Origin: Escherichia coli O157:H7
GTDB taxonomy: Bacteria > Pseudomonadota > Gammaproteobacteria > Enterobacterales > Enterobacteriaceae
DNA: 64,000 bases
Assembly (NCBI RefSeq): GCF_013167455.1
Contig: NZ_CP038328.1
Reading direction: 5' to 3' (one strand)
Shown here in pieces: positions 1-6,000 of this stretch. Numbering within the stretch: position 1 is the stretch's first letter; every line of letters starts with the position of its first letter. Made by a program: the position numbers.

Positions 1-3000
1 TTGAAGGCCTGCGCCGTTTGCGCGAAATCCTGCAAACGCAGGGGCTGAATATCGAAGCGCTGTTCCGCGAGTAAGTAAGCATCTGTCAGAAAGGCCAGTC
101 TCAAGCGAGGCTGGCCTTTTTCTTTTGTTTGGGAAGCTTGTGTTTTTGTCGCCTGGATAAGACACGTCAGCGTCCTACCCGGCAATTTGCATCCTATGTG
201 TTCATCATCTTGCGCACCAGCTGCACAAACAGCTCCTGCTCTTCTGCACTCAAACGCCCCAAAAATTCCTCATCCACGCTGTCACCAATCGGTATCGCCG
301 CAGCAAGTATCTTTTCTCCTTCGGCAGTCAGCCAGACAAAGCGACGCCGCTTGTCAGCGGCATCATGTTCACGTCTGACTAAGCCACGATTCTCCATTCT
401 TGCCAACATTTCTGCCAACGTTGCTTTGGTGCTGACTGCTGCTTCTATCAGTGCCACCTGTTCGATACCAGGCTTATCAGCAATGGCGCGCATCACCGCA
501 TACTGTGGTTTGGTCAGGTCAGGTAACTCGTGCTGCCAGCGAGCCGTGTGCTGCTGAAAAAGCTGTCGTAACTGATGGAACGCTTTATTTCGTAACGTCA
601 TGTAAACTCCGGGCAAACTATCTGCCGCTATCATAGCGGTTTTTCAGTGACGAAGGGGATGTTGTTACTTTTCAGTGCTTGCCGCAATGAGAACAGAGGC
701 GTATTTTAATAATAATGTTCGTATACGAACAATTAAGAGAGTAAGCAATGAAACTGATCGTCGGGATGACAGGGGCTACCGGTGCGCCTCTTGGTGTGGC
801 ATTACTGCAAGCGCTGCGGGAGATGCCGAATGTCGAGACTCATCTGGTGATGTCGAAGTGGGCGAAAACCACCATTGAACTGGAAACGCCTTACAGCGCC
901 CGCGATGTTGCTGCCCTCGCTGACTTCAGCCATAACCCGGCGGATCAGGCGGCGACCATCTCCTCAGGTTCCTTTCGTACAGACGGCATGATCGTTATTC
1001 CGTGCAGTATGAAAACGCTCGCCGGTATCCGCGCTGGTTACGCTGATGGCCTGGTAGGGCGCGCGGCGGACGTCGTGCTTAAAGAAGGCCGCAAACTGGT
1101 GCTGGTGCCGCGTGAAATGCCGCTTAGCACCATCCATCTCGAAAATATGCTCGCACTTTCACGCATGGGCGTGGCGATGGTGCCGCCGATGCCTGCCTTT
1201 TATAACCATCCCGAAACGGTAGATGACATTGTCCACCACGTGGTAGCCCGCGTGCTGGATCAATTTGGCCTTGAACATCCCTACGCCAGGCGCTGGCAAG
1301 GATTGCCGCAGGCCCGGAATTTTTCTCAGGAGAATGAATAATGGCATTTGATGATTTACGCAGCTTTTTACAGGCGCTTGATGACCACGGCCAGTTACTG
1401 AAAATCAGCGAAGAGGTGAACGCGGAACCGGATCTGGCTGCCGCTGCCAACGCCACCGGGCGTATCGGCGATGGTGCACCGGCGCTGTGGTTTGATAATA
1501 TTCGCGGTTTTACCGATGCCCGCGTGGCGATGAATACCATCGGTTCCTGGCAGAACCACGCGATTTCCTTGGGCCTGCCGCCAAACACCCCGGTTAAAAA
1601 ACAGATTGATGAGTTTATCCGCCGCTGGGATAACTTCCCGATCGCCCCGGAGCGCCGCGCCAATCCAGCCTGGGCGCAGAACACCGTCGATGGTGACGAG
1701 ATTAATCTGTTCGATATCCTGCCGCTGTTTCGTTTAAACGACGGTGATGGCGGTTTCTATCTCGACAAAGCGTGCGTGGTTTCCCGCGATCCGCTCGACC
1801 CGGATAACTTCGGCAAGCAGAACGTCGGTATCTACCGCATGGAAGTGAAGGGCAAGCGTAAGCTCGGCCTGCAACCGGTGCCGATGCACGATATCGCCCT
1901 GCATCTGCATAAAGCGGAAGAGCGCGGTGAAGATCTGCCGATTGCCATCACCCTGGGTAACGATCCGATCATCACCCTTATGGGCGCCACGCCGCTGAAA
2001 TACGATCAGTCTGAGTATGAAATGGCAGGCGCGCTGCGCGAAAGCCCGTACCCGATCGCCACCGCGCCATTGACTGGTTTTGATGTGCCGTGGGGTTCAG
2101 AAGTGATCCTCGAAGGGGTTATCGAAAGCCGCAAACGCGAAATCGAAGGGCCGTTCGGTGAGTTTACCGGGCACTACTCCGGCGGGCGTAACATGACCGT
2201 GGTGCGTATCGATAAAGTCTCTTACCGCACCAGGCCGATTTTCGAATCGCTGTACCTCGGCATGCCGTGGACCGAAATCGACTACCTGATGGGGCCAGCC
2301 ACCTGTGTGCCGCTGTATCAACAACTGAAAGCCGAGTTCCCGGAAGTGCAGGCGGTAAACGCCATGTACACCCACGGCCTGCTGGCGATTATCTCCACCA
2401 AAAAACGCTACGGCGGCTTTGCCCGCGCGGTGGGCCTGCGTGCGATGACCACGCCGCACGGTCTGGGCTACGTAAAGATGGTGATTATGGTCGATGAAGA
2501 CGTTGACCCGTTCAACCTGCCGCAGGTGATGTGGGCGCTCTCCTCGAAAGTAAATCCGGCAGGGGATTTGGTGCAGTTGCCGAATATGTCCGTGCTGGAA
2601 CTCGACCCTGGCTCAAGCCCGGCGGGGATCACCGACAAGCTGATTATCGACGCCACCACGCCTGTCGCCCCGGACAACCGTGGTCACTACAGCCAGCCGG
2701 TGGTGGATTTGCCGGAAACCAAAGCCTGGGCTGAAAAACTGACCGCTATGCTGGCCGCACGTAAATAAGGAGAACAAGATGATTTGTCCACGTTGTGCCG
2801 ATGAACAGATTGAAGTGATGGCGAAATCGCCGGTGAAAGATGTCTGGACGGTATATCAGTGCCAGCATTGCCTTTATACCTGGCGCGATACCGAACCGCT
2901 GCGCCGTACCAGCCGCGAACATTATCCCGAAGCGTTCCGCATGACGCAGAAAGATATTGATGACGCGCCAATGGTGCCGAGCATCCCGCCGCTGCTGGCG

Positions 3001-6000
3001 GAAGGTAAGCGCTAATAAAAAGTGCCGGGTAGTGGCTTTGCTTTACCCGGCCTCATTACTTTATTTTATAAAATGACAGCCGCCCGCTTTTCGGCGATCC
3101 GGTATCAATATAAATCTGGTTAGCGAACGTCTGAATGTTATCAAACATCATATGTCCAAATATAAAATAATCAGCGCCGTTTATTTGTTGTAACTCGCCA
3201 TTAAGCGATTTCTGCACACGATCAACAGGCCAGAGTAATTCGCTCTCCGCTATTTCTTTACCAAAGAGATATTCACTCCCCGGATAATCTGCATGTGCGA
3301 TGACATATTTTATGTTGTCGTTAGTGATTTCAATAATATGTGGAAGGTGATGGAATTTCAGCAACAGATCTGTAGCTTCTTTTTGCTCTGAATCATTTAA
3401 ATCGAAAAACCAGTCACCACCGCTGGCAAGCCACATATTGCCATCGCCGGTCGCGAACGCATCCAGCGCCATTGCTTCGTGGTTGCCTTTAACGGAGATA
3501 AACCAGGGCTGGTTTAGCAGGCGCAGGACGTTAAGACTCTCCGGCCCACGATCAATATTATCGCCGACAGAAATAAGTAAGTCGGTTTCGGGGAAAAAAG
3601 AGAGTTGATGTAAGCGGGATTGTAATAACTGATATTCACCATGAATATCACCAACGACCCATATATGGCGATAGTGATGGGTATTGATTTTTTGATAGCG
3701 TGTAGATGGCATGGTTTTACCCTGTAAAATAAGCTTTCCTATTATACAGGGTATTTTTATTTGATTCGTCAGTTATCGTTAATATTCCCGATAGCAAAAG
3801 ACTATCGGGAATTATTATTACACCAGACTCTTCAGGCGATAAATCCATTCCAGCGCCTGACGCGGGGTGAGTGAATCCGGATCGAGGTTTTCCAGTGCCT
3901 CGACTGCAGGCGAGGTTTCTTCCGGTACGGACAGCAAAGACATTTGCGTACCATCCACTTGCGTAGCGGCGGCGTTCGGCGAAATGCTTTCCAGCTCACG
4001 CAGTTTTTGCCGTGCGCGCTTAATAACCTCTTTTGGCACGCCGGCCAGAGCTGCAACCGCCAGGCCGTAGCTTTTGCTCGCCGCGCCATCCTGCACGCTA
4101 TGCATAAAGGCAATGGTGTCGCCGTGCTCCAGTGCATCGAGATGCACGTTGGCGACGCCTTCCATTTTCTCCGGTAACTGGGTCAGCTCGAAATAGTGGG
4201 TGGCAAACAGCGTCAACGCCTTAATCTTATTCGCCAGATTTTCCGCGCACGCCCACGCCAGCGACAGACCATCGTAAGTGGACGTTCCGCGCCCAATCTC
4301 ATCCATCAGCACCAGACTGTACTCGGTGGCGTTATGCAGAATATTAGCGGTTTCGGTCATCTCCACCATAAAGGTTGAACGCCCGGAAGCCAGATCATCC
4401 GCTGCCCCTACGCGGGTAAAGATACGGTCAATCGGGCCAATCTCGACTTTTTGCGCCGGTACGTAGCTGCCGATATAGGCCATCAGCGCAATCAGTGCGG
4501 TCTGGCGCATATAGGTACTTTTACCGCCCATGTTCGGACCGGTAATAATCAACATCCGGCGCTGCGGTGACAGATTCAGCGGGTTGGCGATAAATGGCTC
4601 GTTCAGCACCTGTTCAACCACCGGATGGCGGCCTTCGGTAATGCGAATGCCCGGTTTATCAATGAAGGTCGGGCAGGTGTAGTTCAGGGTATAGGCCCGT
4701 TCCGCCAGGTTCACCAGCACGTCGAGTTCCGCCAGCGCGCTCGCGCTCTGTTGCAACGCTTCCAGATGCGGCAACAGCAGGTCGAACAGCTCTTCATAAA
4801 GCTGTTTTTCCAGAGCCAGTGCTTTGCCTTTTGAAGTGAGGACTTTATCTTCGTACTCTTTTAGCTCTGGAATGATGTAGCGCTCGGCGTTTTTCAGCGT
4901 CTGGCGACGCATATAGTTGATAGGTGCCAGATGGCTTTGCCCACGGCTGATTTGAATGTAGTAGCCGTGCACCGCATTAAAGCCAACTTTTAGCGTGTCC
5001 AGGCCGGTACGTTCACGCTCGCGGACTTCCAGACGCTCCAGATAATCGGTCGCGCCGTCAGCCAGCGCGCGCCACTCATCCAGCTCTTCGTTATAGCCTG
5101 ATGCGATAACACCACCGTCGCGTACCAGCACCGGCGGTGTGTCGATGATTGCTCGCTCCAGCAGATCGCGCAGCTCGGCAAACTCGCCCATCTTCTCACG
5201 TAGCGCCTGTACTGGTGCACTATCAACAGTTTCTAACTGCGCACGCAGCTCCGGCAGTTGCTGGAAAGCGTGACGCATACGGGCCAGATCGCGTGGGCGA
5301 GCGGTACGCAACGCCAGACGCGCCAGAATACGTTCCAGGTCGCCGACCTGACGTAGTACCGGCTGCAACTCGGCGGTGAAATCCTGCAATGCGCCAATAG
5401 TTTGCTGGCGCTCAAGCAACACGCGGGTATCGCGCACTGGCATATGCAGCCAGCGTTTCAGCATACGGCTGCCCATCGGCGTGACGGTGCAGTCGAGCAC
5501 AGAAGCCAGCGTATTTTCCGCACCACCCGCCAGGTTCTGGGTGATTTCCAGATTACGACGCGTCGCGGCATCCATAATGATGCTGTCCTGCTCACGTTCC
5601 ATGGTGATGGAACGAATATGCGGCAGAGTCGTACGTTGGGTATCTTTCGCATACTGCAACAGACAACCGGCAGCACAAAGTCCGCGCGGCGCGTTCTCGA
5701 CGCCAAAACCGACCAGATCGCGGGTCCCAAATTGCAGATTCAACTGCTGGCGCGCGGTGTCGATTTCAAACTCCCACAGCGGGCGACGGCGCAGGCCGCG
5801 ACGGCCTTCAATTAACGACATTTCAGCAAAATCTTCTGCATACAGCAGTTCCGCAGGATTAGTGCGTTGCAGTTCTGCCGCCATCGTTTCCCGGTCAGCC
5901 GGTTCGCTCAGGCGAAAACGACCGGAACTGATATCCAGCGTCGCGTAGCCGAAACCTTTGCTGTCCTGCCAGATAGCCGCCAGCAGGTTGTCCTGACGCT

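What the first reader, a model, noticed from the sequence alone, without database searches (positions are those of the whole stretch)
194..3055. Accessory MarR + UbiX/UbiD phenolic-acid decarboxylase cluster beside pphB-mutS
A divergently transcribed MarR-family regulator and a tightly coupled three-gene operon (UbiX-like prenyltransferase, UbiD-like decarboxylase, small CxxC subunit) sit next to pphB and mutS. I recall the mutS-rpoS interval as hypervariable among E. coli lineages, with K-12 lacking this cluster and O157:H7-type genomes carrying it. By homology it should encode a reversible prFMN-dependent (de)carboxylase for 4-hydroxybenzoate or vanillate-type substrates. Its substrate range and regulation in enteric hosts are poorly defined.
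Basis: partly seen in the sequence, partly recalled or inferred. Interest (0 to 1): 0.55.

Follow-up and report, generated by a model that had tools for sequence, protein, structure and literature searches.

The report
Known HosA-regulated 4-hydroxybenzoate decarboxylase operon
This is the already characterised E. coli O157:H7 hosA-ecdBCD locus, a repressor plus a three-protein enzyme that removes CO2 from 4-hydroxybenzoate and vanillate; it is real and correctly read, but it is textbook-level for this strain.

Summary
The window is E. coli O157:H7 chromosome. Between rpoS (ends at 74) and pphB (3056-3712) lie a divergent MarR gene (194-601, minus strand) and a three-gene operon: B 748-1341, C 1341-2768, D 2779-3015.

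All four products are already named and studied.
- The regulator is HosA (Swiss-Prot HOSA_ECO57, about 98% identical to PDB 8AGA).
- B is identical to PDB 1SBZ. That exact protein (WP_000767724) has been shown to make prenylated FMN.
- C and D pass NCBI's curated VdcC and VdcD cut-offs and match the solved VdcCD complex (7AE4). C keeps the catalytic Glu-Arg-Glu residues and D keeps the four zinc-binding cysteines.
- The published 14-bp HosA operator, GTTCGTATACGAAC, lies at 717-730 and is conserved in Salmonella and Enterobacter.

K-12 lacks the cluster. 2417 of 5426 complete E. coli genomes carry it, and 804 have the O157-type junction with pphB. Salmonella, Cronobacter and Enterobacter carry the same module in the rpoS-mutS interval, so loss in some E. 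coli lineages is more likely than recent gain.

Both have been published.

Verdict: already known, low interest.

The parts
1..74 (+). 3' end of rpoS (context, left border of the variable interval)
   Evidence: RefSeq annotation of the identical O157:H7 record puts the rpoS end at locus 4074, which is window 74.
88..121 (+). rpoS intrinsic terminator hairpin; last sequence shared with K-12 on the left side
   Evidence: Terminator scan. Fold -25 kcal/mol, z -3.9. The K-12 match to the window ends at about 120.
194..601 (-). hosA, a MarR-family repressor of 135 aa
   Evidence: RefSeq CDS WP_000175365.1. The exact sequence is named HOSA_ECO57 in UniRef. PDB 8AGA 'Transcriptional regulator HosA' matches at E 7.8e-84 with 3 differences in 135 residues.
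625..639 (.). 7+7 bp palindrome CCGCTAT-c-ATAGCGG in the hosA leader / intergenic region; function not established
   Evidence: Inverted-repeat search. The CTATCATA core is partly conserved across genera.
679..707 (+). Inferred sigma-70 promoter of the BCD operon: -35 TTGCCG (679-684), 17-nt spacer, -10 TATTTT (702-707)
   Evidence: Read from the sequence. Both hexamer regions fall in columns conserved across four genera in an otherwise divergent spacer. This is an inference; the transcription start was not mapped here.
717..730 (.). HosA operator GTTCGTATACGAAC, the core of the perfect 16-bp palindrome at 716-731
   Evidence: Palindrome found. The same 14-mer is in the oligonucleotide used as the HosA binding site in PMC6261655. 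It is the only exact copy in the 64-kb window. It is exact in three E. coli lineages, Salmonella and Enterobacter, with one mismatch in Cronobacter.
748..1341 (+). Subunit B (ecdB / pad1 / 'O157UbiX'), a flavin prenyltransferase that makes prFMN
   Evidence: NCBIfam VdcB 311 bits against a cut-off of 290, and TIGR00421 246.8 against 108.9. 197/197 identical to PDB 1SBZ. RefSeq WP_000767724.1 is the accession assayed in PMC6541611. His164 is present.
1341..2768 (+). Subunit C (ecdC / yclC), the UbiD-family prFMN-dependent decarboxylase
   Evidence: NCBIfam VdcC 790.5 bits against a cut-off of 650. PDB 7AE4 chain A (S. hydroxybenzoicus VdcC) matches at E 2e-160 over residues 3-471. Motifs NVGIYR 161-166 and EGPFGE 269-274 are present; E274 aligns with the catalytic E278 of ShVdcC. 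UniRef name YCLC_ECO57.
2779..3015 (+). Subunit D (ecdD), a zinc-ribbon activator of C
   Evidence: NCBIfam VdcD 121.2 bits against a cut-off of 30. PDB 7AE4 chain a (ShdD) matches at E 3.4e-11. CxxC pairs at C3/C6 and C28/C31 sit at the same positions as the zinc ligands of ShVdcD.
3021..3053 (.). Hairpin between the convergent D and pphB genes, likely a bidirectional terminator; part of the O157-type junction
   Evidence: Folds on both strands: -18.4 kcal/mol (z -2.6) and -19.9 kcal/mol (z -3.8). Sequence 3028-3056 is absent from the B7A D-ygbN junction and from the K-12 ygbI-pphB junction.
3056..3712 (-). pphB (context, right border)
   Evidence: NCBIfam PRK09968 472.6 bits against a cut-off of 332. 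RefSeq annotation.
3818..6379 (-). mutS (context)
   Evidence: ORF. RefSeq annotation.

Best explanation
The locus is the hosA-ecdBCD module of E. coli O157:H7. It belongs to the VdcBCD / BsdBCD / KpdBCD class of non-oxidative hydroxyarylic acid decarboxylases.

Regulation. A HosA dimer binds the palindrome GTTCGTATACGAAC. This site lies just downstream of the inferred -10 element and 17 bp upstream of the B start codon, so bound HosA blocks transcription of the operon. 4-Hydroxybenzoate binds HosA and releases it from the DNA.

Catalysis. Subunit B prenylates reduced FMN with DMAP or DMAPP to give prFMN. Subunit C binds prFMN and, using the Glu-Arg-Glu triad (E269, R166, E274), reversibly decarboxylates 4-hydroxybenzoate to phenol and vanillate to guaiacol. 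Subunit D, a four-cysteine zinc ribbon, binds C and holds the catalytic loops in place.

What was shown here: gene content and order, family membership, residue conservation, the operator's identity and conservation, and the distribution among genomes.

What is taken from the literature: the enzymatic activities, 4-hydroxybenzoate induction, and the role of D.

What is inferred: the promoter hexamers and the physiological purpose, which is probably detoxification of dietary or plant phenolic acids.
For: Anatomy: ORFs and translational coupling.

Family membership: VdcB, VdcC and VdcD models all score above curated cut-offs.

Solved structures: B is 100% identical to PDB 1SBZ. C matches VdcC of 7AE4 at 2e-160. 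D matches ShdD of 7AE4 with the cysteines in register. HosA matches PDB 8AGA at 7.8e-84.

Names: public names are HOSA_ECO57, YCLC_ECO57 and 'Probable UbiX-like flavin prenyltransferase'.

Biochemistry of B: O157UbiX WP_000767724 forms prFMN from both DMAP and DMAPP. The same accession is annotated at this gene.

Activity of C and D: recombinant E. coli O157:H7 EcdCD is listed under 4-hydroxybenzoate decarboxylases. Its best substrate is the one shared by all 4-HBA decarboxylases in the table. Its second substrate is that of the Streptomyces vanillate decarboxylase. Reverse carboxylation was demonstrated.

Role of D: VdcD is strictly required for VdcC activity and stabilises the Glu-Arg-Glu loops.

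Regulation: HosA represses the operon and itself, and 4-HBA abolishes DNA binding. ITC gives a KD of 4.74 uM for 4-HBA, and a 14-bp palindromic site was used. The site's sequence equals window 717-730.

Phylogenetic footprint: the operator is conserved in four genera within a spacer of 72% mean column identity.
Against: Nothing found here contradicts this reading. Four limits apply.

- The two primary papers (Lupa et al. 2005; Roy and Ranjan 2016) are not in the held library. Their results are cited second-hand, from a review table and from papers that used them.
- The regulation experiments used the UMN026 and EPEC orthologues, not the O157:H7 allele, which differs from the 8AGA protein at 3 of 135 residues.
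- No holo-structure or kinetics exist for the E. coli C-D complex itself.
- HosA has also been linked to flagellar motility in EPEC. The single operator found here does not explain that role.
Confidence: 0.95

Rival explanations
1. B and C are a spare UbiX/UbiD pair that serves ubiquinone biosynthesis by decarboxylating 3-polyprenyl-4-hydroxybenzoate, rather than acting on free phenolic acids.
For: C belongs to the UbiD superfamily and matches E. coli UbiD structures (2IDB, 9.1e-47). B is a genuine flavin prenyltransferase that could in principle also supply prFMN to UbiD.
Against: C scores 173.7 bits against the UbiD equivalog model, whose cut-off is 788. It scores 790.5 against VdcC, whose cut-off is 650. 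A dedicated D subunit and a 4-HBA-sensing repressor go with the free-acid enzymes. K-12 makes ubiquinone without this cluster.
Confidence: 0.02
2. The enzyme's real substrate is protocatechuate or gallate (AroY / LpdC type), not 4-hydroxybenzoate or vanillate.
For: Related B and D proteins from Klebsiella and Enterobacter boost AroY protocatechuate decarboxylase activity. The Klebsiella enzyme in the review table accepts several other hydroxybenzoates.
Against: Protocatechuate decarboxylase structures match C only weakly (5O3M at 9.5e-28, 5NY5 at 3.4e-25), against 2e-160 for VdcC. The review lists 4-HBA and vanillate as the accepted substrates of the O157:H7 enzyme. The cognate repressor responds to 4-HBA.
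Confidence: 0.03
3. In the anaerobic, CO2-rich gut the enzyme runs mainly in the carboxylation direction, converting phenol to 4-hydroxybenzoate as a phenol carboxylase.
For: Reverse carboxylation with excess bicarbonate was demonstrated for this enzyme class, including the O157:H7 entry (footnote e).
Against: The inducer is the acid, 4-HBA, not phenol, which fits a decarboxylating detoxification role. Enteric bacteria carrying KpdBCD homologues produce phenol from 4-hydroxybenzoate in culture.
Confidence: 0.04
4. HosA is chiefly a virulence and motility regulator, and the decarboxylase genes are a passenger of the variable rpoS-mutS interval with no selected function in E. coli.
For: HosA affects FliC and motility in EPEC. 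The cluster is missing from about 55% of E. coli genomes. ecdC is frameshifted in strain B7A. An IS91 event removed B, C and D in strain 06_3044.
Against: C is 97.7% identical in amino-acid sequence between E. coli O157 and Salmonella, and 96.6% with Enterobacter. The operator is invariant across those genera. This indicates strong purifying selection on the enzyme and on its control. The hosA-B-C-D module keeps its order in four genera.
Confidence: 0.08

Closest known systems
EcdBCD / 'Pad1-YclC' of E. coli O157:H7 with HosA (UniProt HOSA_ECO57, YCLC_ECO57; PDB 1SBZ)
   Same: It is the same locus. The window is 100% identical to O157:H7 chromosomes, B is identical to 1SBZ, and all four exact protein sequences are in public databases under these names.
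   Different: Nothing.
VdcCD of Sedimentibacter hydroxybenzoicus (PDB 7AE4/7AE5/7AE7) and BsdBCD/VdcBCD of Bacillus subtilis
   Same: Same B-C-D architecture and a UbiD-type C subunit (E 2e-160). E274 aligns with the catalytic E278. D is a zinc ribbon with cysteines at positions 3, 6, 28 and 31. The substrates are 4-HBA and vanillate.
   Different: These are Firmicute enzymes. D diverges more (E 3.4e-11), and Arg12, which forms an interface salt bridge in ShVdcD, is Glu12 here. The Gram-positive operons were not examined here for a HosA-type regulator or operator.
KpdBCD (Klebsiella), StdBCD (Salmonella) and the Enterobacter / Cronobacter orthologues
   Same: The MarR-B-C-D module lies in the rpoS-mutS interval. 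C is 94-98% identical, and the operator is the same or differs by one base.
   Different: In Salmonella the module is inverted relative to rpoS, with D next to rpoS. Cronobacter and Enterobacter have an extra MFS transporter, LysR regulator and small gene between rpoS and the MarR gene, and they lack pphB at this position.
UbiX / UbiD of ubiquinone biosynthesis (E. coli K-12)
   Same: Same cofactor logic: a flavin prenyltransferase feeds prFMN to a UbiD-fold decarboxylase.
   Different: C falls far below the UbiD equivalog cut-off, 173.7 against 788 bits. It needs a D subunit, acts on free acids, and is induced by 4-HBA. O157UbiX uses both DMAP and DMAPP, whereas K-12 UbiX formed prFMN only with DMAPP under the conditions tested.

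Membership tests
Non-oxidative hydroxyarylic acid decarboxylase, VdcBCD/BsdBCD/EcdBCD class | Three clustered genes in the order B (UbiX-like), C (UbiD-like), D (small subunit), expressed as one operon | tested here: met
   B 748-1341, C 1341-2768 (1-nt overlap with B) and D 2779-3015 (10-nt gap with an RBS) lie on one strand. The order is the same in Salmonella, Cronobacter and Enterobacter.
Non-oxidative hydroxyarylic acid decarboxylase, VdcBCD/BsdBCD/EcdBCD class | B is a UbiX-family flavin prenyltransferase that binds FMN and makes prFMN | tested here: met
   NCBIfam VdcB 311 bits against 290, and TIGR00421 246.8 against 108.9. Identical to the FMN-bound structure 1SBZ. Activity of this exact accession is published.
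Non-oxidative hydroxyarylic acid decarboxylase, VdcBCD/BsdBCD/EcdBCD class | C is a UbiD-family protein that keeps the catalytic Glu-Arg-Glu motif | tested here: met
   NCBIfam VdcC 790.5 bits against 650. R166 lies in NVGIYR, and E269 and E274 lie in EGPFGE. E274 aligns with ShVdcC E278.
Non-oxidative hydroxyarylic acid decarboxylase, VdcBCD/BsdBCD/EcdBCD class | D is a zinc-ribbon protein of about 8-9 kDa with two CxxC knuckles | tested here: met
   NCBIfam VdcD 121.2 bits against 30. CPRC at 3-6 and CQHC at 28-31, the same positions as the ShVdcD zinc ligands.
Non-oxidative hydroxyarylic acid decarboxylase, VdcBCD/BsdBCD/EcdBCD class | Reversible decarboxylation of 4-hydroxybenzoate and/or vanillate | not testable with these tools
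   Reported for recombinant E. coli O157:H7 EcdCD in the review table of PMC6644310, which cites Lupa et al. 2005. The primary paper is not held.
HosA (MarR family, 4-hydroxybenzoate-responsive repressor) | MarR-type winged-helix protein orthologous to characterised HosA | tested here: met
   PDB 8AGA 'Transcriptional regulator HosA' at E 7.8e-84, with 132 of 135 residues identical. The exact sequence is named HOSA_ECO57. It stays below the cut-offs of other MarR equivalogs (SlyA, MarR, MprA, HpaR), so it is none of those.
HosA (MarR family, 4-hydroxybenzoate-responsive repressor) | Palindromic operator between hosA and the decarboxylase operon, downstream of the operon's promoter | tested here: met
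   GTTCGTATACGAAC at 717-730 equals the binding-site core in the published oligonucleotide. It is conserved across genera. Its position relative to the transcription start is inferred from promoter-like hexamers and agrees with the published description.
HosA (MarR family, 4-hydroxybenzoate-responsive repressor) | DNA binding relieved by 4-hydroxybenzoate | not testable with these tools
   Published for the UMN026 orthologue by EMSA and ITC, KD 4.74 uM. Ligand-bound structures are deposited.
UbiD proper (4-hydroxy-3-polyprenylbenzoate decarboxylase of ubiquinone synthesis) | Score above the curated equivalog cut-off of NF008175 (788 bits) | tested here: not met
   173.7 bits.
Phenylphosphate carboxylase alpha/beta subunits | Score above the curated cut-offs of TIGR02723 (564.6) or TIGR02724 (468.95) | tested here: not met
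   122.8 and 147.8 bits. No kinase or phosphatase partner genes are in the interval.
AroY-type protocatechuate decarboxylase | Closest similarity to characterised AroY enzymes | tested here: not met
   AroY structures match at 1e-25 to 1e-27, against 2e-160 for VdcC.

The most novel reading that the evidence does not exclude
The hosA-ecdBCD module is ancestral to the enterobacterial rpoS-mutS interval. Under this reading E. coli has lost it several times independently: the K-12-type precise absence, the IS91-associated truncation in strain 06_3044, and the ecdC frameshift in B7A. The losses would reflect selection in some niches against the enzyme, for example against phenol production or against draining the ubiquinone precursor 4-hydroxybenzoate. 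They would not be merely neutral churn of a recombination hot spot, and the module would not be a pathogen-specific acquisition.
Probability: 0.15. Interest if true: 0.3.

Novelty: already known. Interest (0 to 1): 0.07.

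Why it matters
It matters little as a discovery. The genes, two of the protein structures, the cofactor chemistry, the substrates, the repressor, its ligand and its operator are all published. The presence/absence polymorphism in the mutS-rpoS interval has been used as a strain-typing marker for over twenty years.

The practical value is correct annotation. The regulator here is HosA, not SlyA. Subunit B is a flavin prenyltransferase, not a decarboxylase.

Some questions remain open and are physiological. 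It is not known what the enzyme does for EHEC in the gut: paraben or plant-phenolic detoxification, or phenol production. It is not known why more than half of E. coli lack it. It is not known how HosA affects motility.

Tried and rejected
- Rfam scan of window 1-12000 at gathering thresholds found no RNA family, so no riboswitch or sRNA explains the intergenic regions.
- A search for further HosA operators in the 64-kb window, allowing up to 3 mismatches, found only two 3-mismatch hits. That is no more than chance: 28 of 100 shuffles gave at least 3 matches. There is therefore no evidence here for a wider local regulon.
- The plasmid search returned 9 records. All are predicted non-mobilizable, and they are either 4.8-5.4 Mb records that look like chromosomes filed as plasmids or 0.25-0.8 Mb megaplasmids. 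None of the 2419 E. coli matches is on a plasmid. Plasmid-borne mobility is rejected.
- Base composition does not mark the cluster as foreign. The module is 55.3% GC, the window 53.2% and mutS 56.5%. pphB, at 42.3%, is the compositional outlier.
- The consensus promoter scan found only a weak match for the operon (ATGAGA-18-AATAAT). I preferred the hexamers that are conserved across genera, but neither choice is mapped. No convincing hosA promoter was identified.
- Attempts to read Lupa et al. 2005 and Roy and Ranjan 2016 failed because they are not held.
- Structure prediction, fold searches and the large protein-database searches were not run. Solved structures and exact database entries already answer the question.

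Full report
**1. What is in the sequence**

Window 1-3800 is 100% identical to E. coli O157:H7 chromosomes. RefSeq annotates this stretch as follows:
- rpoS, ending at window 74;
- a MarR-family gene at 194-601 on the minus strand;
- 'non-oxidative hydroxyarylic acid decarboxylases' subunit B (748-1341), C (1341-2768) and D (2779-3015);
- pphB (3056-3712, minus strand) and mutS (3818-6379, minus strand).

The mechanical ORF list gives the same genes. The MarR ORF can be extended to an ATG at 634. The ATG at 601 is the better start: it is preceded by a Shine-Dalgarno complement that is invariant across four genera, and it is the start of the crystallised protein.

The B stop and the C start overlap by one base (TAATG). 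D follows C after ten bases that contain GGAGAA. 'Tightly coupled' is therefore accurate.

**2. What the proteins are**

Against NCBI's curated models the three enzyme subunits pass the cut-offs of the specific families:
- VdcB, 311 bits against 290;
- VdcC, 790.5 bits against 650;
- VdcD, 121.2 bits against 30.

C falls far below the cut-offs for the alternatives:
- ubiquinone UbiD, 173.7 against 788;
- menaquinone decarboxylase;
- the phenylphosphate carboxylase subunits.

B is residue-for-residue identical to PDB 1SBZ, the FMN-bound 'Pad1' of E. coli O157:H7. Its RefSeq accession WP_000767724 is the very protein that Marshall et al. 2019 expressed as 'O157UbiX'. They showed that it forms prenylated FMN from both DMAP and DMAPP and attributed the DMAPP use to His164. 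His164 is present here.

C matches the UbiD-like chain of the solved vanillate / 4-hydroxybenzoate decarboxylase VdcCD of Sedimentibacter hydroxybenzoicus (7AE4) at E 2e-160 over essentially its full length. The motifs NVGIYR (161-166) and EGPFGE (269-274) are intact. Counting through the alignment, E274 corresponds to the catalytic E278 of ShVdcC.

D matches the small chain of the same complex. Its CxxC pairs are at C3/C6 and C28/C31, the positions of the four zinc ligands of ShVdcD.

The regulator is HosA. PDB 8AGA and six further entries named 'Transcriptional regulator HosA' match at 7.8e-84 with three substitutions. The exact sequence is the UniRef representative HOSA_ECO57.

**3. Regulation**

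The hosA-B intergenic region contains a perfect 16-bp palindrome, TGTTCGTATACGAACA, at 716-731. It ends 17 bp before the B start codon.

Published work reports the following, as summarised in the papers read (primary reference):
- HosA represses both itself and the decarboxylase operon.
- Its palindromic site lies downstream of the transcription start.
- 4-hydroxybenzoate abolishes DNA binding.
- ITC gives a KD of 4.74 uM for 4-hydroxybenzoate.

The oligonucleotide carrying the 14-bp HosA site in the biosensor paper contains GTTCGTATACGAAC, which is window 717-730.

I added a comparative test. I fetched the orthologous loci of Salmonella enterica, Cronobacter sakazakii and Enterobacter hormaechei and aligned the spacers. 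The 14-mer is exact in three E. coli lineages, Salmonella and Enterobacter, and has one mismatch in Cronobacter. The spacer as a whole has 72% mean column identity.

Two further conserved blocks upstream fit a sigma-70 promoter: TTGCCG at 679-684, a 17-nt spacer, and TATTTT at 702-707. That promoter would place the operator immediately after the start site, as published. It is an inference and was not mapped.

**4. Activity**

I could not assay anything, and the primary paper (Lupa et al. 2005) is not held.

A review table (PMC6644310) lists recombinant 'E. coli O157:H7 (EcdCD)' among the 4-hydroxybenzoate decarboxylases. It gives two substrates and notes that reverse carboxylation was demonstrated. 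The table uses compound numbers. The starred compound is the one common to every 4-hydroxybenzoate decarboxylase listed. The second is the sole substrate of the Streptomyces vanillate decarboxylase. I therefore read them as 4-hydroxybenzoate and vanillate.

The requirement of C for D, and D's role in holding the Glu-Arg-Glu loops, were shown for the Sedimentibacter and Bacillus enzymes.

**5. Distribution and history**

The cluster (window 150-3030) is present in 2417 of 5426 complete E. coli genomes, always on the chromosome. K-12 MG1655 lacks it and has ygbN-ygbI between rpoS and pphB.

Three layouts exist:
- the K-12 type, rpoS-ygbN...ygbI-pphB;
- the O157 type, rpoS-hosA-BCD-pphB, found in 804 genomes by a junction-specific query, consistent with 801;
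- a composite type, rpoS-hosA-BCD-ygbN...ygbI-pphB, as in strain B7A.

The junction alignments show two things. The K-12 rpoS-ygbN junction carries the same AATAAAAGGTCCGATGCCC... sequence that follows D in B7A. The O157 D-pphB junction (3028-3056) is specific to that layout. The K-12 and O157 forms therefore look like alternative reductions of the composite form.

This polymorphism is long established. Ewers et al. 2014 describe patterns I-IV, including the 2.9-kb O157 segment and its slyA / kpdBCD gene content.

Outside E. coli, the MarR-B-C-D module sits in the same rpoS-mutS interval in Cronobacter and Enterobacter, and inverted in Salmonella. C is 93.7-97.7% identical to the O157 protein. 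The module's GC content is unremarkable for the neighbourhood. No mobilisable plasmid carries it.

Ancestral residence with lineage-specific loss is thus more parsimonious than recent acquisition by pathogens. I did not do a formal reconstruction.

**6. Rivals**

- A spare ubiquinone UbiX/UbiD pair is excluded by the family scores and by the D subunit and regulator.
- AroY-like specificity for protocatechuate is unlikely on similarity and on the reported substrates.
- A physiological carboxylase role is possible in principle, but the inducer is the acid and related enterics make phenol from 4-hydroxybenzoate.
- A broader regulatory role for HosA, such as motility, is not excluded. It is compatible with the main explanation.

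**7. Verdict**

The one overstatement is that substrates and regulation are poorly defined. The locus is already known at the level of genes, structures, cofactor chemistry, substrates, repressor, ligand and operator, so interest is low.
- the operator and promoter footprint across four genera;
- counts of the three layouts in 5426 genomes;
- examples of independent inactivation, namely a frameshifted ecdC in B7A and an IS91-associated truncation in strain 06_3044.

Noticed in passing
L003:10342-11768 (E. coli B7A): The subunit C gene is annotated as frameshifted (a pseudogene) in strain B7A, although hosA, B and D are intact. Carrying the cluster therefore does not guarantee a working enzyme.
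   Followed up: no
L005:6042-8051 (E. coli 06_3044): hosA is truncated at its 5' end and is followed by an IS91-family transposase. B, C, D, ygbN, ygbM and otnC are missing and otnK is shortened. This is an IS-associated deletion in the rpoS-mutS interval.
   Followed up: no
L006:5833-9712 (Salmonella enterica): The MarR-B-C-D module is inverted relative to E. coli. D abuts the 3' end of rpoS and the MarR gene abuts ygbI. Cronobacter and Enterobacter (L007, L009) keep the E. coli orientation but have an MFS transporter, a LysR regulator and a small gene between rpoS and the MarR gene, and no pphB.
   Followed up: partly
window 1341-2768 compared with 194-601: Conservation within the module is very uneven. 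Between E. coli O157 and Salmonella, C is 97.7% identical, D 91.0%, B 86.3% and HosA 80.0%.
   Followed up: partly
window 625-639: A second palindrome, CCGCTAT-c-ATAGCGG, followed by TTTTT on the plus strand, lies in the hosA leader / divergent spacer. Its CTATCATA core is partly conserved across genera. Its function is unknown; it could be a leader hairpin or a protein-binding site.
   Followed up: partly
window 150-190: The sequence GCCTGGATAAGACACGTCAGCGTCCTACCCGGCA, between the rpoS terminator and the hosA stop codon, resembles a degenerate REP element by eye. It is present in B7A and absent from K-12 at this position. It was not tested against a REP model.
   Followed up: no
window 3056-3712: pphB is a compositional outlier, with GC 42.3% and GC3 42.9%. 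The window as a whole is 53.2% GC and the neighbouring mutS is 56.5%.
   Followed up: no
window 36087-37048 (minus strand): srlE, the glucitol/sorbitol PTS IIB component, is identical to the RefSeq copy annotated as frameshifted. Its translation contains several stop codons. From general knowledge, this fits the sorbitol-negative phenotype of O157:H7.
   Followed up: partly
window 14001-64000: The rest of the window is ordinary core genome: hyc, hyp, asc, nor, srl, recA-recX-alaS-csrA, an array of four tRNA-Arg plus one tRNA-Ser, gshA, luxS, emrRAB, proVWX and nrdHIEF. It differs from strain PV15-279 by a 1-nt offset between about window 28000 and 63000 and by local mismatches.
   Followed up: no
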